Positions 3,163-33,800 of a DNA stretch of 64,000 bases are shown here, piece after piece. Each line of letters starts with the position of its first letter. The first letter of the stretch is position 1. A program made the position numbers and the translations under genes. The notes under the pieces were generated by a model. The model searched no databases. It had not been told where the DNA came from and saw only the letters and a program-made list of their open reading frames with translations. The stretch is from NCBI GenBank assembly GCA_963727705.1, contig CAVSHK010000042.1, positions 7,552 to 71,551 of the forward strand. The letters are read 5' to 3'. This DNA is from an uncultured Bacteroidota bacterium (GTDB lineage Bacteria; Bacteroidota; Bacteroidia; 2-12-FULL-35-15).

Positions 3163-3735
3163 ATGAGAAAACTGGTATTTTTTATGCACACTTCACTTGA
3201 CGGTTTTGTGGCAGGACCTAAGGGAGAAATGAACTGGATAAACATAAACGAAACAATGTTTGACTTTATTGCTACAATGACCGACAAAGCCGACACGGCG
3301 CTTTATGGACGGGTAACGTATGAAATGATGCAAAATTATTGGCCAAACGCCGGAGAACAACCAAACGCATCAAAACACGACAAAGAACATTCGGCCTGGT
3401 ACAACAACGTTTCAAAAGTGGTTTTGTCAAAAACAATTACTGAAAAAGGGCTTAACAATACCAAAGTTATTAGCGACCAACTTGCTGATAACATAACTAA
3501 AATAAAAAAACAAGCGGGAAAAGATATTCTGATTTTCGGAAGCCCAACCGCTTCTCATTCATTATTAAGTGAGGGGTTAATTGATGAGTTTTGGTTATTT
3601 GTTAATCCGGTTATACTCGGACAGGGCATACGGCTATTTAAAGGTGCAACAGAAACAACTAAACTGAAACTTATAGAAACGAAAACATTTTCCTGCGGAG
3701 TAATTGCGCTTCATTACGAAACAATACGCAATTAA
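3163..3735 (+). CDS. dihydrofolate reductase / RibD C-terminal family protein
   Basis: MRKLV..MHTSLDGFVAGP, GR.TYE, GKDILIFGS, GLIDE..LFVNPVILG.G. Confidence 0.88.
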   Translation: MRKLVFFMHTSLDGFVAGPKGEMNWININETMFDFIATMTDKADTALYGRVTYEMMQNYWPNAGEQPNASKHDKEHSAWYNNVSKVVLSKTITEKGLNNTKVISDQLADNITKIKKQAGKDILIFGSPTASHSLLSEGLIDEFWLFVNPVILGQGIRLFKGATETTKLKLIETKTFSCGVIALHYETIRN

Positions 3736-3771
3736 TAGTTGTTACCAACCCGAAAAGAAACATCTACCAAA

Positions 3772-4356
3772 ATGACAAAAAAGAAAATTTTAATCATAAC
3801 AGGACATCCTGACAAAGAAAGTTTCAACTTTGGTATTGCTGAAGCATATAAAAAAGGAGCAATTTCATCAGGGGCAGACGTTAAAGAAATTGTAGTTTGT
3901 GATTTGAATTTTAACCCGAACTTGCAATTTGGTTATCGTAAAAGAACTGACCTTGAACCGGACTTAGTTGACGCACAGAATAAAATTAAATGGGCGGAAC
4001 ATTTGGTTTGGATTTATCCGGTTTGGTGGGGTTCTGTTCCTGCTATTTTGAAAGGATTTATTGACAGGGTTTTTCTGCCGGGTTTTGCATTTCAAAAAAA
4101 AGAAAATTCAGTTTGGTGGGACAAACTACTCAAAAATAAATCGGCAAGAATAATTTCCACTCTCGACCAGCCCGCTTGGTATTACTGGCTTGTTTACAAA
4201 CAACCAAGCAACAATGCAATGAAAAAACTGACGTTGCAATTTAGCGGGGTAAATCCTGTAAATGTAACAACTATTGGTCCGATACGACTTTCAAAAGAAA
4301 CTTACAGGCATAATTTGCTTAAAAAAATTGAAAGACTGGGACAGCAAAATAAATAA
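3772..4356 (+). CDS. NAD(P)H-dependent oxidoreductase, flavodoxin-like (MdaB/KefF family)
   Basis: ILIITGHPD..SFN, YPVWWGSVPAILKGFIDRVF; ATG at 3772 preferred over TTG at 3739. Confidence 0.88.
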   Translation: MTKKKILIITGHPDKESFNFGIAEAYKKGAISSGADVKEIVVCDLNFNPNLQFGYRKRTDLEPDLVDAQNKIKWAEHLVWIYPVWWGSVPAILKGFIDRVFLPGFAFQKKENSVWWDKLLKNKSARIISTLDQPAWYYWLVYKQPSNNAMKKLTLQFSGVNPVNVTTIGPIRLSKETYRHNLLKKIERLGQQNK

Positions 4357-4362
4357 CAAACA

Positions 4363-4396
4363 ACCCAGTTCGCTGTAGCGTGTAAAAATGAATAAA
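4363..4396 (+). repeat. 34-bp direct repeat, copy 2
   Basis: ACCCAGTTCGCTGTAGCGTGTAAAAATGAATAAA. Confidence 0.9.
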
Positions 4397-4582
4397 TAAC
4401 ACAGCAGGATTGCCCCTAAAGGACGTTAGACATTAAGTATTATTCATAATATGATAAAGCTCCCGGAAAGTCCAAAAACATTATTAGAATAGCTACTTAT
4501 AAATAGCACATTGCTTTTAAACTCTCAGAGAAGAGTTGAAATGATGTGAAAAAAGCAAAACAATTTTGATTTCACTGCATTA

Positions 4583-5350
4583 TTAAGCAGCAGACCAACC
4601 GCCGTCCATTGGTATAGCAGAACCGGTAATCATAGAAGCGTGTCCCGAAGCAAGAAACAATGCTAATGCCCCTATTGATTCGGCACTCACAAATTCTTTA
4701 ATGGGGTGCTTTGCAAGCATAATTTTATTAATTACTTCTGCTTCCGGAATATTATGTGATTTCGCTTGCTCGGTGATTTGTTTTTCAACCAATGGTGTTT
4801 TAACATAACCCGGACAAATAGCGTTTGCTGTTATTCCCAATGTAGCCCCTTCAAGTGCCAATACTTTTGTTAAGCCAATGATGCCATGCTTTGCAGCTAC
4901 ATATGCCGATTTGAATTCGGAAGCAACCAGTCCATGAACGGAAGAAATATTGATGATTCTGCCCGACTTGTTTTCTTTCATGCCTTTCCACACCGCTTTG
5001 GACGTATGAAATGCAGATGATAAGTTAATGCCAATAATGTCATTCCATTTTTCTGTTGGAAAATCTTCAATGGGTGAAACAAATTGAATTCCCGCATTGT
5101 TTATCAATACATCAATACTTCCCATTTTAGCAATTCCTTCATCAACCATTTTTATTATTTCAGCAGGTTGAAGCATATTAGCTGCAGAATACATTGTTTC
5201 TACATTGTATTGTTTACTAATATCTTTTGCTATTTCAGGCCCTTCTTTTTCTAGTCCGTTAAAAACAATATTATATCCTGATTTAGCAAATTCCTTTGCA
5301 ATACCCAATCCCACACCACTTGTACTTCCTGTTATTAAAACGGTCTTCAT
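4583..5350 (-). CDS. bdhA: D-3-hydroxybutyrate dehydrogenase (SDR)
   Basis: TGSTSGVG, NNAGIQFVSPIEDFP.EKW, SVHGLVAS.FKSAYVAAKHG, CPGYV.TPLV.KQI, DGGW. Confidence 0.9.
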   Translation of the reverse strand: MKTVLITGSTSGVGLGIAKEFAKSGYNIVFNGLEKEGPEIAKDISKQYNVETMYSAANMLQPAEIIKMVDEGIAKMGSIDVLINNAGIQFVSPIEDFPTEKWNDIIGINLSSAFHTSKAVWKGMKENKSGRIINISSVHGLVASEFKSAYVAAKHGIIGLTKVLALEGATLGITANAICPGYVKTPLVEKQITEQAKSHNIPEAEVINKIMLAKHPIKEFVSAESIGALALFLASGHASMITGSAIPMDGGWSAA

Positions 5351-5363
5351 AATTTTAATTTTA

Positions 5364-6164
5364 TTAATGCTCTATAAATTCAGTTATCAATTTTGTAATT
5401 TGAGGAATTGCTTCCAAATTAAGCGTATGGCCAACTCCTGCTACCACCTCCAAAGTGCTTCCCGGTATTGCATCAGCAACCTCCTGTGCCATGTGTACCG
5501 GAAACAACACATCTTTTTCTCCCTGAATAACCAGTGTTGGATTTTGTATTCCTTTTAATTTTGGACGATAATCAGGTCGTTGTGCAGTGGCAGTCATTAA
5601 TTTTCTGAGAGCCGTTACATCCGTATTTTGAGTTTGTTTGGCGGATTTAAGCGTATCAATAGGAATGAGCGGATTTGAAAAATACATTTCGCCTAATACA
5701 GTAGGTAACATTACATCAAACATATGTGCATAACCTCCCATGTTTAAAGAGTTAAGCCAGGCCACAGAAATTGCTTCAGTATAAGGGGTTTTATGAGCAA
5801 ATGTGGATAGCAATATCAATTTATTTATTTTATCGGGATAATTAACAGCCATGTTTTGCGCAACCAAACTTCCGTAAGATAATCCTGCCACATTTATTTT
5901 TTTAATAGTTAAGGCTTCTATCAAGCCTATTATATCCGCTGCGTGTTGGTCAAAATCGCGCACATCTCCGGTTTTGTCGGACTGTCCCTGAAAGATAAAA
6001 TCACATAAAACTATTTTATACTCTTTAGCAAAAGCAGGCAGCATAAAATACCAGGCGGCTGTAGATTGGGATAATCCATTTAAAAAAATAACAGATCTAT
6101 CCGATTGAAGATTGCCATGCACCTCATAATATAAATTTCGGTTGTCAGCAGTTGTATGAAACAT
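5364..6164 (-). CDS. alpha/beta hydrolase (candidate 3HB-oligomer hydrolase / intracellular PHA depolymerase)
   Basis: GLSYG nucleophile elbow, GEKD acid, GH base; located between phaB and bdhA. Confidence 0.75.
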   Translation of the reverse strand: MFHTTADNRNLYYEVHGNLQSDRSVIFLNGLSQSTAAWYFMLPAFAKEYKIVLCDFIFQGQSDKTGDVRDFDQHAADIIGLIEALTIKKINVAGLSYGSLVAQNMAVNYPDKINKLILLSTFAHKTPYTEAISVAWLNSLNMGGYAHMFDVMLPTVLGEMYFSNPLIPIDTLKSAKQTQNTDVTALRKLMTATAQRPDYRPKLKGIQNPTLVIQGEKDVLFPVHMAQEVADAIPGSTLEVVAGVGHTLNLEAIPQITKLITEFIEH

Positions 6165-6205
6165 AATTGATGTGCTAAATTAAGCTTTATAATTCGTTAA
6201 AAGTA

Positions 6206-6973
6206 TTAAAACATATGTTGTCCGCCATTAATAGCGATATTGGCTCCTGTAATAAAATCAGCATCTGTTGACGCTAAGTAAGCAACAGCACCTGCAATTT
6301 CAGCAGGATGTCCTAAACGCCCTACAGGAATTTGTTCAATAATTTTATTACGTATTTCTTCTTTTACGGCCATTACCATAGCAGTGGCTGTATATCCGGG
6401 AGAAACGGTATTTACAGTAATTCCTTTTTTTGCCACCTCTAAGGCCAGCGATTTTGAAAAACCGTACATCGCTGCTTTTGTTGCTGCATAATTCGTTTGT
6501 CCGAATTGTCCCTTTTGCCCGTTAATGGAAGATATATTGATTACGCGCCCCCACCCTTTTGCAATCATGCCTTCTATTACCAAACGGGTACAAATAAATA
6601 CACTGTTAAGATTGGTATCTATTACTTCGTACCATTGTTGAGGAGTCATTTTATGAAGAGCTGAATCCCTTGTAATTCCGGCATTATTTACCAAAATATC
6701 CACCGTTCCTATTTCTTCTGTTATCTGCTTTATCATTTTTTCAGCAGATTTAAAGTTAGAAATATCACCTGAAACAATTTTCAAATCAAAACCCATTTTT
6801 AGTTGGTCATCTCGCCAAGCCTTTGCTTCTTCCCTCCATTTCATGGCATTGGTAAAGTTTCTGTAATTGGCAACAACGGTGTATCCATCCTTATATAAAC
6901 GCTCGCAAATAGCCGTTCCTATTCCACCCGTTCCGCCTGTAATTAAAGCTACCTTATTGTTTTTTTGTATCAT
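6206..6973 (-). CDS. phaB: acetoacetyl-CoA reductase
   Basis: TGGTGGIGTAIC.RL, NNAGITRD, INISSINGQKGQFGQTNYAATKA, SPGY..T.MV, NGGQHM. Confidence 0.93.
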   Translation of the reverse strand: MIQKNNKVALITGGTGGIGTAICERLYKDGYTVVANYRNFTNAMKWREEAKAWRDDQLKMGFDLKIVSGDISNFKSAEKMIKQITEEIGTVDILVNNAGITRDSALHKMTPQQWYEVIDTNLNSVFICTRLVIEGMIAKGWGRVINISSINGQKGQFGQTNYAATKAAMYGFSKSLALEVAKKGITVNTVSPGYTATAMVMAVKEEIRNKIIEQIPVGRLGHPAEIAGAVAYLASTDADFITGANIAINGGQHMF

Positions 6974-6992
6974 AAAATTATTTTTAGCGTGC

Positions 6993-8816
6993 TTATTTTT
7001 TTACAACGGAGGTGTTTTCATTTGGCATATACACGATCGATTTTTCTTTTACATATCTTCCCGGAGCAGGTTCAATCACTTTATATTTAGCATTGCCTAG
7101 TGTTTTAGCCGGAGCAATTTTTTTTCCTGATTTTTTGATCAAACGTTCGCTCCAAGGTGTCCACCAACTTCCATTATGAAACTTTGCCGTTTTTTGCCAA
7201 GCCTCAAATCCATTGTCTAATTCTCCATCAAGATAATAACCGTATTTTTTAGTTGTCGGAGCATTCGTTACTCCAATCACATGACCTGAACCTCCAAGTA
7301 TAAACTCAACGGGACCGCTCACCAATTCAGTAGTGGTGAACGTAGTATGTGCAGGTGATATATGGTCGTCACGCATACCTATAACGTAAACCGGAATTTC
7401 TATCTTACCAATATCTATTTGGGTATTACATATCCTCAAGGCATTTTTCCTGCTTAGTTTGTTTTCTAAAATCATATTCCTTAAATAATAAAGGTATGCG
7501 TTTGCAGGAAGGTTGGTATTATCGTTTGTCCAATATAAAACATCAAAAACAGGAGCTTGTTTTCCTTTTAAATAATTATTGACCACACAACTCCATATTA
7601 AGTCGTTTGCTCTTATTAAATTAAAAGCTGTTTCCATATCACGTCCTCGCATAACTCCCATTTGTGAAAGTTCTCCTCGCTCTAATTTTTTCACCAATGC
7701 ATTGTCAATTACACCGCCCATTGGACCAATATCAGAGAAATCAAGCATAGATGCAAGAAATGTGGCCGTATTCACCGGATTTTCCTCTTTACTTTTACGC
7801 TTAGCAAGTATTGCAAGTGTTACGCTTACAATTGTTCCTCCCAAACAATTGCCCAATACATTTATTTTTTGGGCCTTTGTTATGGCTTGTATCACCTCTA
7901 TAGCTTTTAATGTACCTTTTTCTATATAGTCATCAAAAGCTGTTATTCCCATATCGGCGGTAGAATTTTTCCAGGAGATCATAAACGTAGTGAATCCCTG
8001 ATCAACCGAAAATTTTGCCAACGAATTTTCAGGGCGTAAATCAAGTAAATAAAATTTATTAATTAAGGCCGGTACCATTAGCAATGGTATTTCATAAACC
8101 GTTTTTGTAGAAGGCGAATATTGGATTAACTGCATTAATTCATTTTCAAAAATAACCGCACCCTCAGTAATTGCAAGATTAACGCCCACTTCAAACTTCG
8201 ATTCATCCGTTTGACTTATTTTTCCTCTTTGAATATCTTCTAATAAATTTTTATATCCATCCATCAAACTTTGCCCATTTGTTTGTTGTGCTAATTTAAG
8301 AGCTTCAGGATTGGTAATAACAAAATTAGAAGGTGATAAGGCATCAATATATTGTTTAGTATAAAAGTTCAATTTTTTCTTTGTGTCATAGTCCATATCT
8401 ACAACATCAATTATTTCTGTCATCAGTTGCGACACCAGTAAATAACTCTGTTTAACAAAATCAAAATAATAAGGCGCTTCGTCCCATTCAGGAGCCCTAA
8501 AGCGCTTGTCATTGGCTGCCGGCGTAATAACAGGCTTATATTCCTTCGTAACATTTAACTGACGCTCGGTAATTCGTTTCCATAATTCCTGCTGATCACT
8601 AATAAATTTTTTAAAAAGCGGATGAACCTTCGAAAGCTGATCAGGTTCAATCATTAATTTGGTAGTTAAATCACTATAGGTATCAGCAATATCTCTATTA
8701 TCATGCTCATAACCCGATTTATTTTCAAGATAATTTTGAATTATTTTTTGACTTGCTTTTGTAATATTATCAGCCAGTTCCTTTAAATTTTCTACCCCTT
8801 TATTTTCCATAGTCAT
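6993..8816 (-). CDS. phaC: class I polyhydroxyalkanoate synthase
   Basis: DKRF..PEW, ALSPSNF..TNPE, F.VGVNLA.T.G.V.FENELMQLIQY, INKFY.LDL.PENS, lipase box GNCLGG, catalytic Asp (DDHI) and His (SGH), GSWW..W, APGRYV; 607 aa. Confidence 0.95.
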   Translation of the reverse strand: MTMENKGVENLKELADNITKASQKIIQNYLENKSGYEHDNRDIADTYSDLTTKLMIEPDQLSKVHPLFKKFISDQQELWKRITERQLNVTKEYKPVITPAANDKRFRAPEWDEAPYYFDFVKQSYLLVSQLMTEIIDVVDMDYDTKKKLNFYTKQYIDALSPSNFVITNPEALKLAQQTNGQSLMDGYKNLLEDIQRGKISQTDESKFEVGVNLAITEGAVIFENELMQLIQYSPSTKTVYEIPLLMVPALINKFYLLDLRPENSLAKFSVDQGFTTFMISWKNSTADMGITAFDDYIEKGTLKAIEVIQAITKAQKINVLGNCLGGTIVSVTLAILAKRKSKEENPVNTATFLASMLDFSDIGPMGGVIDNALVKKLERGELSQMGVMRGRDMETAFNLIRANDLIWSCVVNNYLKGKQAPVFDVLYWTNDNTNLPANAYLYYLRNMILENKLSRKNALRICNTQIDIGKIEIPVYVIGMRDDHISPAHTTFTTTELVSGPVEFILGGSGHVIGVTNAPTTKKYGYYLDGELDNGFEAWQKTAKFHNGSWWTPWSERLIKKSGKKIAPAKTLGNAKYKVIEPAPGRYVKEKSIVYMPNENTSVVKK

Positions 8817-8883
8817 TAATTGGCTTGCGTATGAATATTTTCAAATGTAATTGTGTATTTCCGTGTAATTCGTGTACAATAAT

Positions 8884-8926
8884 AAAAAAAATAACCCCGC
8901 AGATTCATTAAAATCTGCAAGATTAT
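8884..8926 (-). terminator. intrinsic terminator between the phasin-like genes and phaC
   Basis: Minus strand ATAATCTTGCAGATT-loop-AATCTGCGGGGTTAT (15-bp stem with G-U pairs) followed by a T run. Confidence 0.65.
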
Positions 8927-9009
8927 GATATAAATTTAATTTATGAAATAAACTTTTAAAATTGGCAAATTAAATATTGCTACTTTTCACGAAGTTCATT
9001 TATAAACAT

Positions 9010-9606
9010 TTATTTTTTCGCTTTCGCATCTTCTTTCCACCATTCAGATGCCCATCCTGCAAACTTTTCCAAACCTTTACCTTGTATTTTAAACAACGAT
9101 TCTATTTGAGAATTAATATTTTCCCCGAATTTTTGGTTAAAATTCACAGCAAGATTGGTGTGTTTGTTATAGAAATCTAATATTTCCTTTGTGTTTTCAG
9201 TTGTTAGTTTATGAGACGCTTCAAAATTTTCACGTATCAATTCCAACACTTTTTCAGGATGCTCTGTTTTAGATTCCTTTAATGCATCTACTAACTTCGT
9301 ATTAAAGTCCACATTCATTTCCATTTGTCTGGTATACGAATTGATTATGCTGTCAAGTGCATCTTCAGCAAGCTCAACCGATTTTCCGAATGCTTCTTTA
9401 ACATTATCGGTAATCGCATCATCTACTTCACCCTGATTAAATTTAGCTTTTATTGAATCTACAATTTTTTTGTTAGAGTCTATAGCCTCTCCAACGTGTT
9501 TTTTGTTTGAATCAATAAATTCTTTTATCGTGTCTTTCGATTTTTCAGCAGATCCCTTTATCGTGTTTTTTATTTTTTCAGCCTTGTCATTTAGTGTTGT
9601 GTCCAT
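9010..9606 (-). CDS. hypothetical all-helical protein, putative phasin
   Basis: 198 aa, no Cys, amphipathic helical periodicity, Trp-rich basic C-tail; directly upstream of phaC. Confidence 0.6.
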   Translation of the reverse strand: MDTTLNDKAEKIKNTIKGSAEKSKDTIKEFIDSNKKHVGEAIDSNKKIVDSIKAKFNQGEVDDAITDNVKEAFGKSVELAEDALDSIINSYTRQMEMNVDFNTKLVDALKESKTEHPEKVLELIRENFEASHKLTTENTKEILDFYNKHTNLAVNFNQKFGENINSQIESLFKIQGKGLEKFAGWASEWWKEDAKAKK

Positions 9607-9655
9607 ATCCTAAGATTTTTTAAAACATCAATAATTATTTATTAATACGCTTATT

Positions 9656-10396
9656 TTAGTTGGAGCCAACACCTTGTTTTTTTGTAGTTAAACTACCATT
9701 TAAACTTGCTTTTGCCGGCTCATTAACACTTTGTTCGGTTTCTTTGGTTGCAACAGGTATACTCAATAAATCTTTCCATGCTTTAATGTTAGCAGTAATT
9801 CCTGCATTCACCTGAACAATTAATTTATCCAATATTTCCTTGTTAGCTTCAACTGCTGATACAGCAAAATCAGCATACGATTTAGTGATCGCTTCAATGG
9901 ACTGTTTCGATGAATCAAGATTAGCATCTAATTCTTTTTTAAAATTTCCTGTTAAAGGAGAAAAGGACGATTTAGTAATATCAAATTGTTTAACAATGGT
10001 ATCGAACGATTGCTGATTAAGCTTGGTCAATTCCTCCACTTGTTTGTTATAAACATCAAACACTTCCTTTACATCTTTTGAAACAGCTCCCATATCGCCT
10101 TGTTTACCAAGTTCTGCAATTTTTTTCATTGCTGCTTTTGATATGTTCGATAAAGTTTCTGCATTTTTTTGCATTTCATCAATGATCGTTTTTCCTGAAA
10201 CGCCAAAATCTACATTGGCTTTTCCATCAGCTTGTATTGAATTAATCGCTTTGTTATAAAGCTCATTCGCTACTTTTATTTGTTTGTTTTGAGTTTCAAT
10301 AAATGCAGCATTCGCATTTTGAAACCATTTGATGCCCTTGTCTACATTCTCTTTGAATGTTTCGGCAACTGCTGAAGTTGTTTTGTCTGTTGTCAT
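9656..10396 (-). CDS. hypothetical all-helical protein, putative phasin
   Basis: 246 aa, A/K/N/Q-rich amphipathic helices, low-complexity tail; first gene of the pha unit. Confidence 0.55.
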   Translation of the reverse strand: MTTDKTTSAVAETFKENVDKGIKWFQNANAAFIETQNKQIKVANELYNKAINSIQADGKANVDFGVSGKTIIDEMQKNAETLSNISKAAMKKIAELGKQGDMGAVSKDVKEVFDVYNKQVEELTKLNQQSFDTIVKQFDITKSSFSPLTGNFKKELDANLDSSKQSIEAITKSYADFAVSAVEANKEILDKLIVQVNAGITANIKAWKDLLSIPVATKETEQSVNEPAKASLNGSLTTKKQGVGSN

Positions 10397-10929
10397 TGTT
10401 TTTTTGATTTTAGATTAATACTATTATATACCGGACTAATTAATATACAAATTCAATAAAATTGCTAAGCGAATTGTTTCCTCAAAAGTAATACAATTAC
10501 AATCGCAAACACACAAATTGTTAATAACTTTATTGTAAAAATTGTTAATTTAATTTCAATTATCATTTTTATTTATTTAAAATCCGAGCATTTTTATTTT
10601 ATGCTTGTTTCCTTATTTTTGGAGTTTCCATTCTACAAAATCTCATCCTGTTTTATTTGGATTTTTCAGAATTATAAATGAACGAAACATATATGAACAC
10701 AGTATTACGCGTATATCAATAAACTATTAAATGATGTGATCACAAATAAAACAAAGAACGTTTTACCAATTTTATTTTATAATTATTTATTAATTTGCAA
10801 ACTAAAATATTATTAAGGTATTTACACTATGCAAATCAGGTTTGAATAAAAAAAACAAAAACAAGCAATTTTCATATAAAAACCTGCTTTTGCGGTATCA
10901 AATGTATATCAATATGGTTTAAATTTTAA

Positions 10930-10966
10930 TGATATTAATCATCTTCATGACGTGATTTGCATCACA
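10930..10966. promoter_or_regulatory. tandem CRP/FNR-type boxes upstream of the patatin gene
   Basis: TGAT-ATTA-ATCA (10930-10941) and TGAT-TTGC-ATCA (10953-10964, within CGTGA-N6-TCACA); -7-like TACCTTTA at 11023-11030. Confidence 0.55.
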
Positions 10967-11080
10967 ACTCATCTCATTAACAAAAATTAAAGATTAAATA
11001 TTAACCTTTCGTTCAAAAAAAATACCTTTACGCTCGTCAAATAATCATAACAATTCAATAAACCTCTTTAAATTTTTATT

Positions 11081-12091
11081 ATGCAGAAAAAAAAAATAGC
11101 ATTGGCATTGCAAGGTGGAGGGTCGCACGGAGCTTATACCTGGGGAATTTTGGAACGTTTATTAGAAGAGGATAAATTTGACATCAGAGGCATTTGTGGG
11201 ACAAGTGCCGGAGCCATGAATGGCGCTATTGCCACCTACGGGTTACACACCAGCGGTAAACAAGGTGCTATTGATTTGCTGGAAAAATTTTGGAAACGAA
11301 TAGCCCAAAGTGGAGCTTTTTCACCTATGAAATCAAGCTGGATGGATCACAGTCTCCACCCTGGAGGGCTTGATTACTCGCCCGGATACCAGTTTTTCAA
11401 CTATTTAACATCGGTTTTTTCACCTTATGATTTAAATCCATTGGATATAAATCCAATCAAAGACATTTTACTGGAGTTAATTGATTTTAACGAGTTAAAA
11501 AAAAGTGACACACAATTATTTGTAAGTGCTACGAATGTTAAAACCTGCAAACCAAAGGTATTTAATCTTTCAGAAATGAATGTTGATGCATTGCTTGCTT
11601 CCAGTTGTTTGCCATTAATGTTTAAGGCTGTTGAAATTAACGGTGAATTTTACTGGGATGGAGGATATATGGGTAACCCTCCTATATATCCACTTATTGA
11701 TGTGAACAATGCCGATGACATTTTAATTATTCAAGTAAATACGATGAATATAAATGAAGTACCAAAAACGATAAAGGATATTAACGACCGTATTAATGAA
11801 ATTAGTTTTAATAATAGTTTAATGGCCGAAATGCGTATGGTTTACTTTAAAGAAAAAATATTGAATATTGGTTATGACTTAAGAGGACGCTTACGCAAAA
11901 TATATTTTCATAGAATCAGTGCTGATACCATTTTAGATGATTTAACACTGTCCAGCAAATTTAATGTTGCATGGCACTTTTTAAATGATTTGCGCCAGAG
12001 AGGCAGAACTGTTGCAGAAAAATGGCTTGCAGAAGAATCACATCATGTCGGACACAAATCTTCATTTGATATCAAAAAGGTTTTCTTATAG
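11081..12091 (+). CDS. patatin-like phospholipase family protein (candidate PHA depolymerase)
   Basis: GGGSHG oxyanion loop, GTSAG nucleophile, YWDGGY.GNP. Confidence 0.88.
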   Translation: MQKKKIALALQGGGSHGAYTWGILERLLEEDKFDIRGICGTSAGAMNGAIATYGLHTSGKQGAIDLLEKFWKRIAQSGAFSPMKSSWMDHSLHPGGLDYSPGYQFFNYLTSVFSPYDLNPLDINPIKDILLELIDFNELKKSDTQLFVSATNVKTCKPKVFNLSEMNVDALLASSCLPLMFKAVEINGEFYWDGGYMGNPPIYPLIDVNNADDILIIQVNTMNINEVPKTIKDINDRINEISFNNSLMAEMRMVYFKEKILNIGYDLRGRLRKIYFHRISADTILDDLTLSSKFNVAWHFLNDLRQRGRTVAEKWLAEESHHVGHKSSFDIKKVFL

Positions 12092-12154
12092 AAGTTTATT
12101 TGTTGGGTACTATTATAGATAAATGGAATAATTCCTATATTAAATATTACAACA

Positions 12155-12202
12155 GATGCTGAATTATACTTCGACAAGCTCAGTACTGGCGTTCAGTATG
12201 AC
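12155..12202. repeat. REP-like palindromic element (nested)
   Basis: GATGCTGAA...TTCAGTATGAC shell with an inner ACTTCGACAAGCTCAGT; related to 715-792 and 30314-30336. Confidence 0.55.
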
Positions 12203-12258
12203 GACCTATTTAATCGTTTAGATAGCGGTTTATTATAAGATAAACATAGGTAAGATAC

Positions 12259-12302
12259 AAAAGAAAAAGCCCTTCCAAATTTAAGGAAGGGCTTTTTCTT
12301 TT
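12259..12302. terminator. bidirectional intrinsic terminator
   Basis: AAAAGAAAAAGCCCTTCC-loop-GGAAGGGCTTTTTCTTTT between convergent genes. Confidence 0.85.
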
Positions 12303-12313
12303 TACTCTTTTAA

Positions 12314-14107
12314 TTAAAAACAATATTTGTTTTCTTTGATCAATAAATCAGCAACAACTCTGCGAGCAACTTTAGTATTTAAAGGAGATGTTTTAGTGAA
12401 ACGTTTTAATCCACTTAACATTCCCATGCGCTCATCACCTTCTGCAAAGCTATTGATTGCATCTCTTCCTGCTTTTGCAATTTTATCTGCTGCATCATAA
12501 ATATAAACACGCATCATTTCCAATTGCTCTTTGCAAGCTTCTTCTCCACGTTGGCTTACTAATTTTTCTACACGCAATTGAAGAGACTCTGCAACATACG
12601 TTTCAATGTACATATCAGCTATGTTAATTAATATCTCTTGCTCTTCACCTAATTTTTGCATGAATTTTTGTACAGCAGCACCACTTACCATCAATATCGC
12701 TTTTTTGAATTTCTTAAGAGCTTCTTTTTGTTCTGAGAACAATGTTGGTTCTGATGTATCAAAATCAGGAATGCCCATGATTTCTTTAGCTACAGCCATC
12801 GAAGGAGTCATTAAATCAAGTTCTCCTTTCATCGCTTTTTTCATCATCATATCGATGATTAACATACGGTTGATTTCGTTTGTACCTTCAAAAATACGGT
12901 TGATACGAGAATCGCGGTAAGCTCTTTCCATTGGTGCTTCTGCACTATAGCCCATACCACCATATACTTGTAATCCTTCGTCAGTAACAAAATCTAACAC
13001 TTCAGAAGCATGTACTTTTAAAATCGCAGCTTCTACTGCAAATTCTTCAACACCTTTTAATTTAGCTTGTAATTCATCCATTCCACCTGCAATGTATGCT
13101 TTAGTAGCTTCTTCCATATTCATACTTGCTCTGTATGTAGCAGCCTCACTAGCATAAATACGAATAGCAGCCTCAGCCAATTTTTGTTTGATAGCTCCAA
13201 ATTCTGAAAGTGATTTGTTAAATTGTTTACGTTCGTTAGAATAGTTAATTGCATGGCTCAATACTATTTTAGAACCACCCAATACGCCACCGGCAAGTTT
13301 AATACGACCAAGGTTAAGGATGTTAACAGCTATTTTAAATCCATCGCCTCTGTTTGCTAATAAATTTTCAACCGGAACTTTGCAGTTTTCTAAAAACACC
13401 TGACGAGTAGAGCTTCCTTTGATACCCATTTTTTTCTCTTCAGCATTTAAAGTAACTCCACCAAAGTTTTTTTCAACGATAAATGCACTTAAGTTTTTGT
13501 CATCGTCTATTTTAGCGAATACCGTGAAAATGTCAGCAAAACCGGCATTGGTAATCCACATTTTTTGTCCGTTAAGGATGTAATGTTTACCATCAGCCGA
13601 AAGAGTTGCTTTTGTTTTTCCTGAGTTAGCGTCGGAACCTGCACTTGGCTCAGTTAAGCAGTAGCATGCTTTCCACTCACCGCTTGCCATTTTAGGAATG
13701 TATTTTGCTTTTTGCTCTTTGTTACCATAGTAAAGTGTTGGCAACATACCAATACCTGTGTGAGCACCTAAAGCGATGCCAAATGATCCGCCACCACCCA
13801 ATTTTTCGGTAACAAGCATTGATGTTGTAAAATCTTTACCGTATCCACCGTACTCTTCAGGTACTGAAATACCTAATAACCCAAGCCCTGCTGCTTTGTC
13901 TAATAGTGATGGCATCAATCCTTCTTCCAAGGTATCAATACGATCCATAATAGGAGCAACTTCTGAAGATATAAAATTAGAACAGGTTTCCCCAATCATA
14001 ACTTGCTCTTCGCTCCAGTTTTCAGGAATAAATATATCCTGTGCGTCTGTTTCTTTAATAAGGAACTCTCCTCCTTTTAAAGTTAAATTTGTTGTTGTTG
14101 TTGACAT
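12314..14107 (-). CDS. acyl-CoA dehydrogenase (FadE/VLCAD-like)
   Basis: YCLTEPSAGSDA, NGQKMWITNA, EKKMGIKGSST, YGGMGYSAE, RDSRINRIFEGTNEI. Confidence 0.93.
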   Translation of the reverse strand: MSTTTTNLTLKGGEFLIKETDAQDIFIPENWSEEQVMIGETCSNFISSEVAPIMDRIDTLEEGLMPSLLDKAAGLGLLGISVPEEYGGYGKDFTTSMLVTEKLGGGGSFGIALGAHTGIGMLPTLYYGNKEQKAKYIPKMASGEWKACYCLTEPSAGSDANSGKTKATLSADGKHYILNGQKMWITNAGFADIFTVFAKIDDDKNLSAFIVEKNFGGVTLNAEEKKMGIKGSSTRQVFLENCKVPVENLLANRGDGFKIAVNILNLGRIKLAGGVLGGSKIVLSHAINYSNERKQFNKSLSEFGAIKQKLAEAAIRIYASEAATYRASMNMEEATKAYIAGGMDELQAKLKGVEEFAVEAAILKVHASEVLDFVTDEGLQVYGGMGYSAEAPMERAYRDSRINRIFEGTNEINRMLIIDMMMKKAMKGELDLMTPSMAVAKEIMGIPDFDTSEPTLFSEQKEALKKFKKAILMVSGAAVQKFMQKLGEEQEILINIADMYIETYVAESLQLRVEKLVSQRGEEACKEQLEMMRVYIYDAADKIAKAGRDAINSFAEGDERMGMLSGLKRFTKTSPLNTKVARRVVADLLIKENKYCF

Positions 14108-14217: not shown

Positions 14218-15397
14218 TTAGTTTAATAATTCAAAAATACCTGTAGCACCTTGTCCTGTACCAACGCACATTGTAACCATTCCGTACTTTTGTTTTCTTC
14301 TGCGCATTTCATTTAACAGCTGAACGGTTAATTTAGCACCTGTACAACCCAATGGATGTCCTAATGATATTGCACCACCGTTTACATTTACTTTCTCAGG
14401 ATTAATGCCTAATTCTCTAATAATAGCTACTGATTGAGATGCAAATGCTTCATTCAATTCAATTTGGTCAATTTGATCCAATGTCATTCCCGCTTGTTTC
14501 AATGCTTTTGGAATTGAATAAATTGGTCCGATACCCATGATACGAGGAGGAACACCTGCAACGGCATATGTTACTAAACGCGCAATTGGTTTTAAGTTAT
14601 GTGCCTCTAAGAATTTTTTGTTGCAAATCATTACAAATGCAGCACCGTCGGATGTTTGCGAAGAATTACCCGCAGTAACACTACCTCCTTGGGCAAACAC
14701 CGGTTTTAGTTTTGCCAAAGCGTCTAATGTTGTACCTGCTCTTGGTCCTTCATCGGTATCAAAAACGAACTCTCTTGTTTTTTTCTTTTCGTTTTCATCT
14801 AAGTATGTTTCTGTAACAGTTATGGGAGCAATATCGTCCTTAAATGTACCGTCAGCAATAGCTTTTAACGATTTTTCATGCGACTTCACTGCAAATGCAT
14901 CTTGCTCCTCGCGAGAAACTTTATACTCACTTGCAACAGCCTCTGCTGTTAAACCCATGCTCCAATACTCGGTTCTGTCAGATTTTGCAATATTCAGGAT
15001 CCGGTGCAACTTTCCATCCGCTGAATGGAAGTAAACTCATTGACTCAACTCCACCGGCTATGATACAATCAGCCATTCCTGAGTTGATTTTTGCCGAAGC
15101 AATGGCGATGGTATCTAAACCGGAAGAACAAAAACGGTTAACGGTTTCACCCGGAACTTTATCCACTCCTAAGCCTTGAAGGGCAAGGTGTCTTCCCATG
15201 TTTAAGCCTTGTTCAGCTTCTGGATTAGAACAACCAACAATTAGGTCGTCAATTTCCTCCGGTTTAACATTTGGAACATTTTTCATTAAATGTTTAATTA
15301 CCTGAGCTCCCAACTCTGTAGGAAAGGTGCTCTTAAGAGAGCCTTTTCCGGCTTTTCCTATCGCACTTCTGTAACCTGCTACTATATATGCATCCAT
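14218..15397 (-). CDS. fadA: acetyl-CoA C-acyltransferase (thiolase), split by a +1 frameshift near 14992
   Basis: N-half has NRFCSSGL and AGGVESMS; C-half has [17 protein letters not shown] and TMCVGTGQG. Removing one base at GAA-T-ATT joins the two ORFs. Confidence 0.9.
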
Positions 15398-30831: not shown

Positions 30832-33800
30832 TTAACCGGAAAGTGATAAACGCAAACTTATGCCGGCATTTGTATTGGATGTTGGAAATGCATTAGAAAT
30901 GAGTGGCTTGTTAATAATTCGGTCGTAATACAAACGAATGGTTAGCCTTTGACTAATGGTGTAATCGGCAGATAATTTAATTGAAATGATATTTGTTCCA
31001 GCCGTTATTTGACTAACGTCTTCATCAATCCGCCTGATGGAAGTCTGGTTTCTGCGAACAGATATATTACCGATTAAATTCACATCACTTTTTATTGGTT
31101 TACCGGCAATTTTCAACTTGCCTAAAGGAACGTCTTTTATACGATATCCGGTTCCAATTATAATCTCATTGCCTAGTATTTCGGAAATGGTTTTACTCGT
31201 TAAACCTAATGAAATGGTGCGATCTTTATTAAAAGTAATATTTGCAAGCATACTATTGTGAAGGGTTACATCTACCTTCATTAAAGGTGCCCATTGTTCT
31301 ATAATGGAAACCGTAGAAATAATATTTTTAGATAAAAAATTAGGGTTTGCAGGGATTGTAGAAGTGGTATCTATTTTATTAGCATTACCCTTTGCATCCT
31401 GCTGATACAACAAGTTGGAGGAATAACCGCCAATACCATAAGTTGATTTATAAGAATTGGATAATGTAATGGTCTTAAATAGTTTTTGCATCAGCGCAAT
31501 TTTAGACAATCCGTCATAGGTTACCCTCCAGTTAGGTTTAGGAATTTTAGGGAAATTATCCAAAGTAACCTTACTAGAGTTTTGCCCGGAATAGGCGGCA
31601 ATGAATGCCGGAATTAATACATCTTGTGATAGTGCATTATACCCTTTAGCGTATCCACCTATTGTTGCAGTAGAGTTGGAATTTTCGGCACCTAAACGTG
31701 TTGATACCTGTTGCCTGTCGGCCAAAAACTTTTCAAATACCGTATTCCCGTTTGCAAATGAAGTTCCAAGCGACATAAAAGACATACTAAAATTACCTGT
31801 TTGCACTGTTGATTGATGAACGTATTGGGCAGAATCTCTATTCCATCTGAAAAATTCATTTAAACTTTGTGATTTGGTCCAGGTTTCGGTTATTTCTATT
31901 TTAAGATGTGGTATAGGTTCAATTGTTGATCGGGCATTAAAACTTTGAGTATTTGTATTTACATAAGGGGTATTAATGGATTGGGTCTTCACAAGCCAAT
32001 CTTTGTTAATGGCGGTTTGCCGAATGTCCTTTTGACTACCAAAAATAAAGCCTGGAGTAGGACCTTCAAAGTTCTGATCCATTCCCATCATATTAGTAAA
32101 TTGTTTGTAGCCGGGTAATATTGTACCTCTATTAACGGAATAAGTTCCCCCAACATTTTTTACCCCCATCAATACACGCATAAAATAAGATACGGGAGCC
32201 GAAGGATTAAATTTCCTTTTTTTAGTAGAATCACTTGGTGTTTTACCTTTAGAAAGATTCAAAGGATTATTTGGCGGTTTGGCTTTGTTATTTTTATTAG
32301 ACTTGGCGGGTGGATTCAGTGCCTTTTTTAAAAATGGAACCTTATTGTAAAGTGTAACCAAGTTTAAATCTCCTGTCCACGCTACAACTTGAGAATTTTG
32401 TATCGTATTTCCCAATGAGTCGGCATTAAATGGCGCCCTCACCCAGCCATATGTTCCTGTATACTTTACTGAAGCTTTAGTGAAATCAAGTAACGGAAGT
32501 TTATTAATTGGTATGTTATAATTAGCATTAAACTGAGAATTATATTGGGTAGTCTTCCCTAAATTTTTAAAATTATTGATAATTGTGTCTTGTTTTGCTT
32601 TTGTATTGATTAGACCAATAGGTTCCAGTACCCTTGCCAGATTTGCGGCAGTAAAATCCACTTTCAGATCTTTGGTAATCGGGTATCCTAAATTATAATC
32701 TCTGGTCCAGTTAATTGTTTTATTATACAATGGGGTCATGATCAAATCGCCTCCGGTAACATCCCTGTATTGGTAGGAACTGAAAGCCCTGACGGCATTG
32801 GTTGAAAAACCATATTGACTTGGATAAGGATAGAAATTAATGTCCTTTATTAATTTTAAACTATTGGATTGTAAAAATTTGATTTTTGAAAACGGACTAA
32901 TATTTTTGGGAGATGCGGTATAAGAATATACTAATCCGCCTTTTATATTTTTTATAATATTATATTGAACATTTATACTATGCTTTAACGTCTGGCTATA
33001 TGCATAAGAAGCCGACCAGTTTTCAATGTCATAGATATGGCTTTTTTTCGCATCCTTACCTTTATTTTTTTTAACATTCGAAAAATTAATGCTTTTTTGC
33101 TGCGTATAATCTATTGTTATGTTTTTGATACTATCCTGCTTTACTTTTGAATACGATTTAAGTTCTGGTTTTAAAAGTAAATCAGGGTTAAGAGGATCAT
33201 ATTGAGGAGTTATAAACGTTTCTCCATATCCAACATACATAGGTACTTTTATATTGGAACGTACAGGTAAAAATTTACCCAGCTCCACACTTGATGTTAA
33301 ATTATATTGCAACAAACTCTGTCGCTGTCGTGCACTCACCTTATCTTCAATACTTCCCCATCCCGGCGTGTACATACTACCCGACAGTGAAACAGAACCA
33401 AAATCGGCTAACTGAGCCGTTATATTTGTATTTGCTGCACCTCCTCCATTTAGTATGAAATCCGTTAGGCGCAATTCATCCATCCATACGGATGCGCACT
33501 TTGGTTGTCCGTCATCACTATTATCGCTCCCGGTTTTTTGAGGATTTCTTACACCCAGCATCATTACTTTTACTGCAGCTAAATTAGGATTTCCTTTTAC
33601 CGTTATTTTTCTATTTCCGTCGGCAGGTACGGTATAAAGCGTTGTGCTATTATTTCCGATTGTTAAATTACGCTGCTGCTTGGCAGCTTCTAACTCTGCA
33701 AACGTAACAACCATGTTATTTGCAGCAGGCCAAACGATTGCTTGTTGATTAGCGTTGGTTCCGTCATAACTACCCGGCGGTGTTAGGTCCAATGGTAATT

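What the first reader, a model, noticed from the sequence alone, without database searches (positions are those of the whole stretch)
4583..12091. Self-contained PHA (PHB) synthesis-and-mobilisation locus in a Bacteroidota chromosome
Seen: a class I PhaC with intact Cys/Asp/His catalytic motifs, then PhaB, a serine hydrolase and 3HB dehydrogenase, all co-oriented with 13-41 nt gaps. Two helical ORFs lie upstream and a patatin is divergent. The host markers (sprA, TAnnTTTG promoters) indicate Bacteroidota. Known: class I phaC/phaB is typical of Proteobacteria, and PHA storage is poorly documented in Bacteroidota. Inference: this is a complete carbon-storage cycle with a non-canonical gene set (no phaA, phaR or recognisable phaP/phaZ). 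Its AT content resembles the host, suggesting long residence. This is the best candidate for an undescribed system in the window.
Basis: partly seen in the sequence, partly recalled or inferred. Interest (0 to 1): 0.88.

Follow-up and report, generated by a model that had tools for sequence, protein, structure and literature searches.

The report
PHB storage operon in uncultured Bacteroidia
This is a real, conserved gene cluster for making and re-using the storage polyester PHB in an uncultured Bacteroidia lineage, a phylum where such genes are rare, and it carries two unannotated accessory protein families; it is not a self-contained pathway or a new kind of system.

Summary
On the minus strand: two helical ORFs, class I PhaC, PhaB, an alpha/beta hydrolase and 3-hydroxybutyrate dehydrogenase. 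A patatin gene is divergent. PhaC, PhaB and BdhA pass NCBIfam cut-offs, and the PhaC Cys324/Asp484/His512 triad is invariant in 20 relatives.

It is not a chimera. Composition matches the contig, SprA lies on the same contig, and 48 Bacteroidota MAG loci carry related PhaCs that separate from Pseudomonadota.

In the window's 68-species genus, PhaC occurs in 22 of 67 other species. The 198-aa helical protein occurs in all 22 and in 1 of 45 without PhaC. The hydrolase (16) and BdhA (17) occur only in PhaC-positive genomes, mostly adjacent to each other. None of 400 other sampled Bacteroidota genomes has class I PhaC.

I read the helical ORFs as a lineage-specific phasin-like family; they fail Pfam Phasin_2. 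I read the hydrolase as the 3HB-releasing enzyme, by context only.

"Self-contained" is wrong: intact thiolases, CoA-transferase, a second phaC locus and a third phasin-like/hydrolase locus lie elsewhere. The patatin is not a conserved component (1 of 67).

Verdict: new variant of a known kind, moderate interest.

The parts
9656..10396 (-). hel246: 246-aa amphipathic all-helical protein, a phasin-like candidate and a divergent member of the same superfamily as hel198
   Evidence: ORF. The hydrophobic moment has z=6.9 against shuffles and there is no TM segment. 15 of 17 family members give sub-threshold Pfam Phasin_2 hits, best E 5.7e-5. hhalign to the hel198 family gives prob 97.7%, E 2.4e-12. 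A copy lies upstream of phaC in 12 of the 20 related clade A/basal loci.
9010..9606 (-). hel198: 198-aa highly conserved three-helix amphipathic protein; candidate PHA-granule-associated (phasin-like) protein of an unannotated family
   Evidence: Orthologues are 62-80% identical in 12 of the 14 aligned (41-42% in two distant loci). 268 clusters were found; every source name shown is 'hypothetical protein' or a generic automatic label, and only 2 of the 120 listed carry any Pfam hit. AF2 model: pLDDT 81.3, helices 5-56, 64-112 and 117-197. Moment z=6.8. It lies upstream of phaC in 17 of 18 loci that have upstream sequence. It is present in 22 of 22 PhaC+ and 1 of 45 PhaC- congeners.
8891..8926 (-). 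Terminator-like hairpin (16 pairs, then a T run) in the 193-nt spacer between hel198 and phaC
   Evidence: That it separates or attenuates two transcription units is an inference.
8842..8849 (-). TACATTTG, a possible Bacteroidota -7 promoter element 26-33 nt upstream of the phaC ATG
   Evidence: The motif occurs at chance frequency in the window, so this is position-only evidence.
6993..8816 (-). phaC: class I poly(R)-hydroxyalkanoate synthase, 607 aa
   Evidence: TIGR01838 scores 636.8 against 622.65; PhaC_N E 5.6e-65. It aligns to the full-length solved PHA synthase 9knj at E 2.2e-119. Cys324, Asp484 and His512 are invariant.
6206..6973 (-). phaB: acetoacetyl-CoA reductase (SDR), 255 aa
   Evidence: TIGR01829 scores 361.8 against 302.1. 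It has GGTGGIG and YAATK motifs. It lies downstream of phaC in 19 of 20 related loci at 71-87% identity.
5364..6164 (-). abH: cytoplasmic alpha/beta-fold serine hydrolase, 266 aa; candidate PHB depolymerase or 3HB-oligomer hydrolase
   Evidence: Abhydrolase_1. Motifs GLSYG (Ser96) and GH (His246). It passes no curated family: pcaD 116.6 against 255.85, i_nPHAscl 84.4 against 300. It is present in 16 of 22 PhaC+ and 0 of 45 PhaC- congeners, and is adjacent to bdhA in 13 of those 16.
4583..5350 (-). bdhA: (R)-3-hydroxybutyrate dehydrogenase, 255 aa
   Evidence: TIGR01963 scores 349 against 307.05. It has the YVAAK motif. It is present in 17 of 22 PhaC+ and 0 of 45 PhaC- congeners.
4459..4479 (-). 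Terminator-like hairpin about 100 nt after bdhA; likely end of the operon
11081..12091 (+). Patatin-like lipase/esterase, divergent; an optional neighbour, not a conserved part of the system
   Evidence: PF01734 E 1e-22. Motifs GGGSHG, GTSAG (Ser42) and DGG (Asp193). It is found in 1 of 67 congeners. It is adjacent to pha genes in L032, and next to bdhA in L039, which lacks abH.
14218..15397 (-). Thiolase (fadA-like) in a fadB-fadA-fadE beta-oxidation row, broken by one frameshift near 14980-15010
   Evidence: The neighbours are FadB-like 15516-17891 and FadE 12314-14107. This adjacency is not conserved in related loci.

Best explanation
The locus encodes a working poly(3-hydroxybutyrate) storage module of an uncultured Bacteroidia bacterium. 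It is organised as two co-oriented units.

Unit 1 (hel246-hel198) makes two amphipathic helical proteins. I infer that they coat the PHB granule like phasins.

Unit 2 (phaC-phaB-abH-bdhA) couples synthesis to mobilisation:
- PhaB reduces acetoacetyl-CoA to (R)-3HB-CoA.
- PhaC (Cys324 nucleophile, His512, Asp484) polymerises it.
- On starvation, the serine hydrolase abH (Ser96) releases 3HB from polymer or oligomers.
- BdhA oxidises 3HB to acetoacetate.

The steps that open and close the cycle are encoded elsewhere in the genome. These are a thiolase making acetoacetyl-CoA, and a 3-oxoacid CoA-transferase plus thiolase returning acetoacetate to acetyl-CoA.

Shown here: the family membership of PhaC, PhaB and BdhA, the catalytic motifs, conserved synteny, and co-occurrence. 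Inferred: the granule binding of the helical proteins, the substrate of abH, the operon boundaries, and actual PHB accumulation.
For: HMM scores above curated cut-offs for PhaC, PhaB and BdhA.

PhaC aligns over residues 91-592 with the solved synthase 9knj. Its triad is invariant in 20 sequences.

Synteny in independent MAG assemblies:
- hel198 upstream in 17 of 18 loci.
- phaB downstream in 19 of 20.
- abH in 8 of 20.
- bdhA after abH in 5.

Co-occurrence within one 68-species genus where phaC is patchy:
- PhaC in 22 of 67 other species.
- hel198 in 22 of 22 PhaC+ and 1 of 45 PhaC- genomes.
- abH in 16 of 22 and 0 of 45.
- bdhA in 17 of 22 and 0 of 45.
- abH and bdhA stay adjacent in 13 of 16 genomes, including G465, where the pair lies 221 kb from phaC on the same contig.

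The hel proteins:
- Strongly amphipathic, z 6.8 and 6.9 against -0.2 for controls.
- All-helical.
- Related to each other, and to the ORF upstream of the second phaC: hhalign 97.7% and 99.7%.
- The nearest named language-model clusters are PhaP_Bmeg, PHA_synth_III_E and PHB_acc at 0.88-0.80; these are leads only.

The genome holds three full-length thiolases and a CoA-transferase A subunit scoring 249.7 against 128.5.

Host-like composition and SprA on the same contig.
Against: No experiment, no RNA data and no cultured member; PHB accumulation is unproven.

The hel families fail Phasin_2. The best individual scores are sub-threshold, and hhalign to an ad hoc Phasin_2 alignment gives about 1% probability. 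PDB profile and fold searches gave nothing significant.

abH passes no curated depolymerase model (84.4 against 300), and its best sequence neighbours are generic esterases and PcaD-like enzymes.

6 of 22 PhaC+ congeners lack abH, and 11 of 20 clade A/basal loci lack it nearby, so it is dispensable or replaceable.

Another hydrolase on contig C23 scores slightly better for the depolymerase model (98.9 bits).

No PhaR and no canonical PhaZ were found, in an 88.6%-complete genome.

Related genomes are not independent, so the co-occurrence counts overstate the support.

The assembly carries frameshifts (thiolases, sprA), so its base-level accuracy is imperfect.
Confidence: 0.7

Rival explanations
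1. Synthesis is as described, but abH is not the polymer depolymerase. It would be a 3HB-oligomer or dimer hydrolase, a thioesterase-like esterase, or an unrelated esterase that merely travels with bdhA. Polymer hydrolysis would be done by another enzyme, such as the C23 hydrolase or, in a few genomes, the patatin.
For: abH fails the curated depolymerase models. L137:1152-2093, next to phasin-like paralogues, has i_nPHAscl as its best NCBIfam hit, aligned full-length at 98.9 bits. 6 of 22 PhaC+ congeners lack abH. In L039 a patatin sits next to bdhA where abH is missing. A patatin-like PHA depolymerase is known in Haloferax mediterranei (passages of PMC4823750).
Against: abH co-occurs strictly with PhaC (0 of 45 PhaC- genomes) and keeps its adjacency to bdhA (13 of 16). 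That fits any 3HB-releasing role and does not discriminate polymer from oligomer. The C23 hydrolase also fails its cut-off (98.9 against 300).
Confidence: 0.25
2. The helical proteins are not passive phasins. They would be a synthase partner or regulator (PhaM-, PhaE- or PhaR-like), which would explain why hel198 is as conserved as the enzymes.
For: hel198 orthologues are 62-80% identical in 12 of the 14 aligned (41-42% in two distant loci), similar to PhaC itself at 53-70%. That is unusually high for a phasin by my own knowledge of phasin variability, not by any search. No PhaR was found in the genome. Atlas neighbours include PHA_synth_III_E and PHB_acc (leads only).
Against: No DNA-binding or other domain was detected. 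Class I synthases act without a partner in the known cases (established knowledge). The protein is amphipathic along its whole length, as phasins are.
Confidence: 0.2
3. The locus is an assembly or binning artefact: proteobacterial pha genes joined to a Bacteroidota contig.
For: Class I phaC-phaB is typical of Pseudomonadota, and the nearest non-Bacteroidota PhaCs are from Rhodocyclaceae/Zoogloeaceae at 41-46% identity. The assembly has frameshifts.
Against: GC, GC3 and tetranucleotide usage match the rest of the window. The same gene order recurs in about 20 independently assembled Bacteroidota MAG contigs up to 511 kb long. The 46 Bacteroidota PhaCs separate from 32 Pseudomonadota rows with SH-aLRT 100. 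SprA lies 22 kb away on the same contig. One public-run contig identical to the window bridges the phaB-phaC junction; it may come from the source sample.
Confidence: 0.03
4. The genes are intact but PHB is not a bulk store here. PhaC would make only low-molecular-weight or complexed PHB, or the operon would be silent.
For: There is no phenotype for any member. Bacteroidetes isolates commonly give false-positive Nile red signals, and few show granules (passages of PMC7464897).
Against: Bulk storage best explains three features together: dedicated amphipathic coat-protein genes in several copies, two PhaC paralogues, and a linked mobilisation pair.
Confidence: 0.07

Closest known systems
Cupriavidus necator-type class I PHB system (phaCAB with PhaP phasins, PhaR, PhaZ)
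   Same: Single-subunit class I PhaC with an N-terminal domain and a Cys-Asp-His triad, aligning to solved class I structures 9knj, 5hz2 and 5t6o at E 1e-109 to 1e-119. NADPH-type acetoacetyl-CoA reductase next to phaC. Small amphipathic helical proteins encoded nearby.
   Different: There is no phaA in the operon. No PhaR (TIGR01848) or PhaZ (TIGR01849) was found in the genome. The helical proteins fail Phasin_2. A hydrolase and bdhA are fused into the synthesis operon. The gene order of C. necator is recalled, not taken from a call.
Rhodocyclaceae/Zoogloeaceae (Thauera, Azoarcus) phaC-phaB-phaB clusters
   Same: These are the nearest non-Bacteroidota PhaCs, at 41-46% identity, with phaB directly downstream of phaC.
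   Different: They carry a second phaB copy in place of abH-bdhA, and no hel198/hel246 homologues upstream. Their genomes hold bona fide Phasin_2 proteins. The PhaCs fall on the other side of an SH-aLRT 100 branch.
Bacillus-type intracellular scl-PHA depolymerase (NCBIfam NF050089; PDB 8ynv/8ynw 'poly(3-hydroxybutyrate) depolymerase')
   Same: A roughly 270-310 aa cytoplasmic alpha/beta hydrolase with a G-x-S-x-G nucleophile. There is a weak sequence match: 84.4 bits, and E 8.9e-14 to 8ynv over residues 7-123.
   Different: The score is far below the family cut-off of 300. abH is equally or more similar to PcaD-like lactonases and metagenomic esterases. Its activity is unknown.
Haloferax mediterranei PhaZh1, a patatin-like PHA depolymerase
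   Same: A patatin-domain protein with a Ser-Asp dyad is encoded next to pha genes in the window, L032 and L039. PhaZh1 hydrolyses native granules to 3HB in vitro (passages of PMC4823750).
   Different: The patatin is present in only 1 of 67 congeners. The PhaZh1 knockout had no effect on mobilisation in vivo (same passages).

Membership tests
Class I PHA synthase (TIGR01838) | Whole-protein HMM score at or above the curated cut-off, and higher than for classes II and III | tested here: met
   636.8 against 622.65. Class II scores 396.5 against 855.4 and class III 114.9 against 365.3. The margin over the cut-off is small.
Class I PHA synthase (TIGR01838) | PhaC_N domain followed by an alpha/beta-hydrolase catalytic domain | tested here: met
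   PF07167 covers residues 102-269 at E 5.6e-65; PF00561 covers 245-514.
Class I PHA synthase (TIGR01838) | Lipase-box Cys plus catalytic Asp and His | tested here: met
   GNCLGG (Cys324), Asp484 and His512. They align with the corresponding stretches of 9knj and are invariant in 20 sequences.
Class I PHA synthase (TIGR01838) | Polymerises short-chain (R)-3-hydroxyacyl-CoA as a single-subunit enzyme | not testable with these tools
   Inferred from the adjacent phaB and bdhA. It needs expression and GC-MS.
Acetoacetyl-CoA reductase PhaB (TIGR01829) | HMM score above the cut-off, with the SDR glycine motif and Tyr-x3-Lys | tested here: met
   361.8 against 302.1. GGTGGIG at residue 13 and YAATK at 162. 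The stricter equivalog NF042966 is not met (192.7 against 436).
3-hydroxybutyrate dehydrogenase (TIGR01963) | HMM score above the cut-off, with SDR motifs | tested here: met
   349 against 307.05; NF009093 scores 333.6 against 258. YVAAK at residue 150.
Phasin (Pfam PF09361 Phasin_2; TIGR01985, TIGR02809) | HMM score above the family threshold | tested here: not met
   hel198: TIGR01985 20.3 against 99.7; PF09361 15.1 against 24.9. hel246: TIGR02809 20.4 against 65.85; PF09361 16.0 against 24.9. Sub-threshold hits recur in 15 of 17, 7 of 15 and 8 of 51 members.
Phasin (Pfam PF09361 Phasin_2; TIGR01985, TIGR02809) | Profile-profile homology to bona fide Phasin_2 proteins | tested here: not met
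   hhalign against an alignment of 14 Phasin_2 proteins from five Pseudomonadota genomes gave prob 1.0%, 0.5% and 0.8%. That reference alignment is heterogeneous (28% mean identity), so the test is weak.
Phasin (functional class) | Small, non-enzymatic, amphipathic alpha-helical protein encoded beside pha genes | tested here: met
   Three long helices. Moment z 6.8 and 6.9, with no TM segment. Position upstream of phaC in 17 of 18 loci.
Phasin (functional class) | Binds the PHA granule surface and affects granule number or size | not testable with these tools
   Needs localisation or binding assays.
Intracellular scl-PHA depolymerase, alpha/beta-hydrolase type (NF050089) | HMM score above the curated cut-off | tested here: not met
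   84.4 against 300. TIGR02240 (mcl depolymerase) scores 42.3 against 250.6.
Intracellular scl-PHA depolymerase, alpha/beta-hydrolase type (NF050089) | G-x-S-x-G nucleophile and catalytic His in a cytoplasmic protein | tested here: met
   GLSYG (Ser96) and His246. There is no hydrophobic N-terminus (sequence; maximum KD window 1.29). The catalytic Asp was not assigned.
Canonical intracellular PhaZ (TIGR01849) and regulator PhaR (TIGR01848) | Presence of a family member in the genome | tested here: not met
   No match in the 88.6%-complete genome, while the control genome Caulobacter scored.
Patatin-like PHA depolymerase (PhaZh1-like) | Patatin domain with a Ser-Asp dyad, consistently linked to pha genes | tested here: inconclusive
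   The domain and dyad are present. Linkage is seen in the window, L032 and L039 only, and in 1 of 67 congeners. No comparison with PhaZh1 itself was made.

The most novel reading that the evidence does not exclude
An uncultured freshwater, soil and groundwater Bacteroidia lineage stores PHB using its own toolkit. This consists of:
- a monophyletic pair of class I PhaC paralogues;
- a previously unannotated superfamily of amphipathic three-helix granule proteins (hel198, hel246, orf222) that replaces the Phasin_2 proteins found in the five Pseudomonadota genomes searched, of which the highly conserved hel198 may be a specific PhaC partner;
- a new family of intracellular PHB or 3HB-oligomer hydrolase (abH), hard-wired to 3HB dehydrogenase.
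Probability: 0.45. Interest if true: 0.6.

Novelty: new variant of a known kind. Interest (0 to 1): 0.5.

Why it matters
PHA storage shapes survival under feast-famine conditions, and it is usually attributed to Pseudomonadota, Bacillota and haloarchaea. In a sample of 400 other Bacteroidota genomes, none had a class I synthase.

If this operon works, a set of uncultured Bacteroidia from lakes, soils, sediments and groundwater are overlooked PHB accumulators. The habitats are taken from the isolate names in the record titles.

The locus also supplies two experimentally tractable, unannotated protein families:
- a conserved phasin-like family (268 clusters for hel198; 261 representatives for hel246);
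- a hydrolase that databases label 'alpha/beta hydrolase' or '3-oxoadipate enol-lactonase'. The second name is probably wrong, given its strict association with phaC and bdhA.

The chemistry of the pathway itself is textbook.

Tried and rejected
Complex prediction of PhaC (alignment A4) with hel198 (A1): verdict 'no answer', score 0.00 in two runs, controls not folded. This is neither for nor against binding.

Expression: no RNA holder was listed for window 3501-13000.

Read laying: two runs with small word shares (0.08 and 0.07).
- X1 (freshwater sediment) gave four short contigs identical to the window inside abH, phaB and phaC, one of them spanning the phaB-phaC junction. It may be the source sample.
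- X2 gave only short pieces at 90-97% likeness.
- There was no cover over most of the stretch, so no direct test of the 4.4 and 12.3 kb borders was possible.

Homology of hel198 and hel246 to known structures:
- The A1 PDB profile search gave nothing better than E 0.02.
- The A2 profile matched designed helical bundles, a MotA/TolQ/ExbB-domain chain and apolipoproteins down to E 2.4e-6, which I read as shared amphipathic-helix composition.
- Foldseek on the hel198 model: best E 0.089 (BAR domains, TM 0.28-0.48), none at or below 1e-3.

Homology to Phasin_2 by hhalign was rejected at about 1% probability. The reference alignment was made ad hoc and is poor.

Acetoacetyl-CoA synthetase: no match over the cut-off in the genome (240 against 520.9).

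abH against solved structures gave only generic alpha/beta hydrolases. I did not fold abH because that result would not discriminate.

Beta-oxidation-fed PHA, suggested by the adjacent fadB-fadA-fadE row, was considered. It was set aside because that adjacency is not conserved in related loci and the thiolase is frameshifted.

Supplementary files of papers were closed. MAG gene tables in the supplements of the papers listed could already list phaC in Bacteroidota bins; I could not see them.

Literature: 7 searches, with passages read in 6 papers. These showed no description of a Bacteroidia class I pha operon or its phasins. The nearest item is a class II clone 'probably' from Salinibacter (passages of bioRxiv 10.1101/042705).

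Full report
**What is there.** The window is G000:C42:7552-71551, from a 3.48-Mb, 45-contig MAG that is 88.6% complete. The minus strand carries six co-oriented ORFs between 4583 and 10396, and a patatin ORF lies divergently at 11081-12091.

| Gene | Best model | Score vs cut-off |
|---|---|---|
| phaC | class I synthase TIGR01838 | 636.8 vs 622.65 |
| phaB | acetoacetyl-CoA reductase TIGR01829 | 361.8 vs 302.1 |
| bdhA | 3-hydroxybutyrate dehydrogenase TIGR01963 | 349 vs 307 |

- The fourth enzyme, abH, is an alpha/beta-fold serine hydrolase that passes no curated model. Its best hits are pcaD at 116.6 vs 255.85 and the intracellular scl-PHA depolymerase model NF050089 at 84.4 vs 300.
- PhaC aligns over residues 91-592 with the solved full-length synthase 9knj (E 2.2e-119).
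- Cys324 (GNCLGG), Asp484 and His512 are present and invariant in 20 Bacteroidota homologues.
- The gaps are 13, 41 and 19 nt within phaC-phaB-abH-bdhA.
- The 193-nt spacer before phaC holds a 16-pair hairpin with a T run (8926-8891). A second hairpin follows bdhA (4479-4459).
- I therefore infer two transcription units.

**Not an artefact.**
- GC is 0.350 in the cluster and 0.346 in the window. GC3 is 0.25-0.29, like the neighbouring genes.
- The cluster's tetranucleotide distance to the window is lower than all but 3 of 21 equal-sized chunks.
- SprA_N, a gliding/type IX secretion marker of Bacteroidota, lies at 30832-37495 on the same contig.
- A scan of one genome per species found 174 relatives. 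Of the best 80 loci, 48 are labelled Bacteroidota/Bacteroidia/Flavobacteriales, all of them MAGs, at 49-72% identity. The other 32 are Pseudomonadota at 40-46%.
- In a quick maximum-likelihood tree of 78 rows, the 46 Bacteroidota rows form one side of a branch with SH-aLRT 100. Three of the 80 loci (L043, L057, L064) gave no ORF hit of 480 aligned residues and were left out.
- Within the Bacteroidota side there is a clade A of 19 rows, which includes the window, a clade B of 25 rows, and two basal rows (L036, L062). The tree is unrooted and limited to the best hits, so it cannot name a donor.
- The TAnnTTTG motif is not enriched (107 matches vs 108 expected) and is no evidence of host.

**Synteny.** All counts are.
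- Clade A plus two basal loci (20 loci besides the window):
  - A hel198 homologue lies upstream on the same strand in 17 of the 18 loci with at least 600 bp of upstream sequence.
  - phaB follows phaC in 19 of 20.
  - abH follows in 8 of 20. Eleven lack it despite at least 2.1 kb downstream, and one locus is too short to tell.
  - bdhA follows abH in 5. In two more the contig ends inside abH, and in one bdhA is absent.
- Clade B (25 loci) has no adjacent phaB. Instead:
  - A hel246-like ORF (orf222) lies upstream in 18 of 25. L039 carries a hel198-like ORF there instead.
  - An ADP-forming acyl-CoA ligase lies downstream in 5 of 25.

**Distribution and co-occurrence.**
- Class I PhaC (E <= 1e-50) was found in 0 of 400 other Bacteroidota genomes drawn evenly from the phylum.
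- The window's GTDB order, as held here, is a single genus of 68 species. PhaC is in 22 of the other 67.
- hel198 is in 23 of 67: all 22 PhaC-positive genomes plus G448, which is 82% complete.
- abH is in 16 of 67 and bdhA in 17 of 67, every one PhaC-positive.
- All 16 abH-positive genomes also have bdhA. The two genes are adjacent in 13 of them, on different contigs of fragmented assemblies in 2, and 4.8 kb apart in 1.
- In G465 the abH-bdhA pair lies 221 kb from phaC on the same contig. In five other genomes it is on a different contig from phaC.
- So abH-bdhA is a module of its own that tracks phaC. These genomes are kin, so the counts are not independent events.
- The patatin is in 1 of 67.

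**The helical proteins.**
- hel198 is well conserved. Of its 14 aligned orthologues, 12 are 61-80% identical and two distant loci are 41-42%.
- It has 268 database clusters. Every source name shown is 'hypothetical protein' or a generic automatic label. Only 2 of the 120 listed carry any Pfam hit (PF19915).
- It folds in silico into three long helices (pLDDT 81.3).
- hel198 and hel246 are hydrophilic and lack TM segments. Their helical hydrophobic moments are far above shuffles (z 6.8 and 6.9, against -0.2 for PhaB and abH).
- The two families are homologous to each other (hhalign 97.7%, E 2.4e-12).
- The ORF upstream of the second phaC is homologous to the hel246 family (99.7%, E 1.5e-25).
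- The genome holds further paralogues on C23.
- A profile of the hel246 family finds 261 representatives among 1.84 billion proteins.
- Phasin_2 is the most recurrent weak Pfam hit, in 15 of 17, 7 of 15 and 8 of 51 members. It never passes threshold.
- hhalign against 14 true Phasin_2 proteins from five Pseudomonadota genomes gives about 1% probability.
- I therefore do not file these proteins in Phasin_2. I call them phasin-like by architecture, position and co-occurrence.

**The rest of the pathway lies elsewhere.**
- Next to the cluster is a fadB-fadA-fadE row. Its thiolase (14218-15397) is split by a single frameshift.
- Full-length thiolases are on C26, C35 and C28. A 3-oxoacid CoA-transferase A subunit is on C28.
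- No PhaR, canonical PhaZ or acetoacetyl-CoA synthetase was found.
- A second phaC of clade B type is cut by the ends of contigs C11 and C35.
  - Before it lie orf222 and an SDR.
  - After it lie an ADP-forming acyl-CoA ligase, DUF4399, a SpoIIAA-like protein, a MaoC dehydratase (PhaJ-like), a FabI-like reductase and an acetyl-CoA acetyltransferase-like thiolase.
- A third locus on C23 joins two phasin-like paralogues, an SCP-x-type thiolase and a 313-aa hydrolase. The hydrolase's best NCBIfam hit is the depolymerase model, at 98.9 vs 300.
- The finding's locus is thus one of three PHA-related loci and is not self-contained.

**Mechanism and verdict.**
- Most likely (0.7): acetoacetyl-CoA made by a thiolase encoded elsewhere is reduced by PhaB and polymerised by PhaC.
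- Granules are coated by hel198 and hel246.
- abH releases 3HB, BdhA oxidises it, and the CoA-transferase and thiolase return it to acetyl-CoA.
- Enzyme identities, motifs, synteny and co-occurrence are shown. Granule binding, the substrate of abH and PHB accumulation itself are inferred.
- Seven literature searches found no description of this operon. Supplements were closed.
- This is a new variant of a known kind, of moderate interest.

Noticed in passing
window 14218-15397 (-); G000:C32:26345-27587; window 30832-37495 (-): Three long genes are each split into two overlapping or adjacent ORFs by a frame change: the fadA-like thiolase, a second thiolase on C32 broken at a similar relative position, and sprA (669 + 1599 aa). 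These are either indel errors of the assembly or real pseudogenes. The pha genes themselves are intact.
   Followed up: partly
L136 (G000:C11:36000-43989) and L135 (G000:C35:31000-42263): A second phaC of clade B type is cut by two contig ends. It is preceded by a hel246-like ORF (orf222) and an SDR. It is followed by a 725-aa ADP-forming acyl-CoA ligase (4-hydroxybutyrate-CoA ligase-like, 699.6 vs 1300), a MaoC/PhaJ-like dehydratase and an intact acetyl-CoA acetyltransferase-like thiolase. The ligase directly after phaC recurs in 5 of 25 clade B loci and might re-activate free 3HB.
   Followed up: partly
L137 (G000:C23:38000-47000): A third PHA-related locus holds a hel198-like ORF (211 aa), a hel246 paralogue (61% identical), an SCP-x-type thiolase, a 303-aa coiled-coil protein and a 313-aa alpha/beta hydrolase. 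The hydrolase's best NCBIfam hit is the intracellular scl-PHA depolymerase model, at 98.9 bits and below the cut-off.
   Followed up: partly
L039:4490-7564: In another Bacteroidia MAG a patatin gene (53% identical to the window's) lies directly after bdhA, beside a hel198-like gene and a clade B phaC, with no abH in the fetched locus. The patatin may take the place of abH next to bdhA.
   Followed up: no
proteins P0139, P0161 and about 10 other 359-aa clusters: Some abH orthologues (65-70% identical) carry an extra C-terminal extension of about 93 aa and unknown function. Open frames of 362-377 aa are seen in G002, G450, G463 and G464.
   Followed up: partly
window 12259-12302: A strong 18-pair hairpin flanked by A and T runs lies between the convergent patatin and fadE genes. 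It is probably a bidirectional terminator.
   Followed up: no
window 55751-58438 (-) and 50722-54702 (+): An 895-aa ORF carries two D-Ala-D-Ala ligase units in tandem. A 1326-aa ORF joins an AMP-binding adenylation domain to hexapeptide-repeat transferase motifs. Neither was examined further.
   Followed up: no
G000 relatives G030:C71:139604-141334 and G017:C126:129-1841: Two PhaC homologues in related genomes carry one in-frame stop each (TAA and TGA), so they are possible pseudogenes or sequencing errors. Several hel198 paralogues in congeners also carry single in-frame stops.
   Followed up: no
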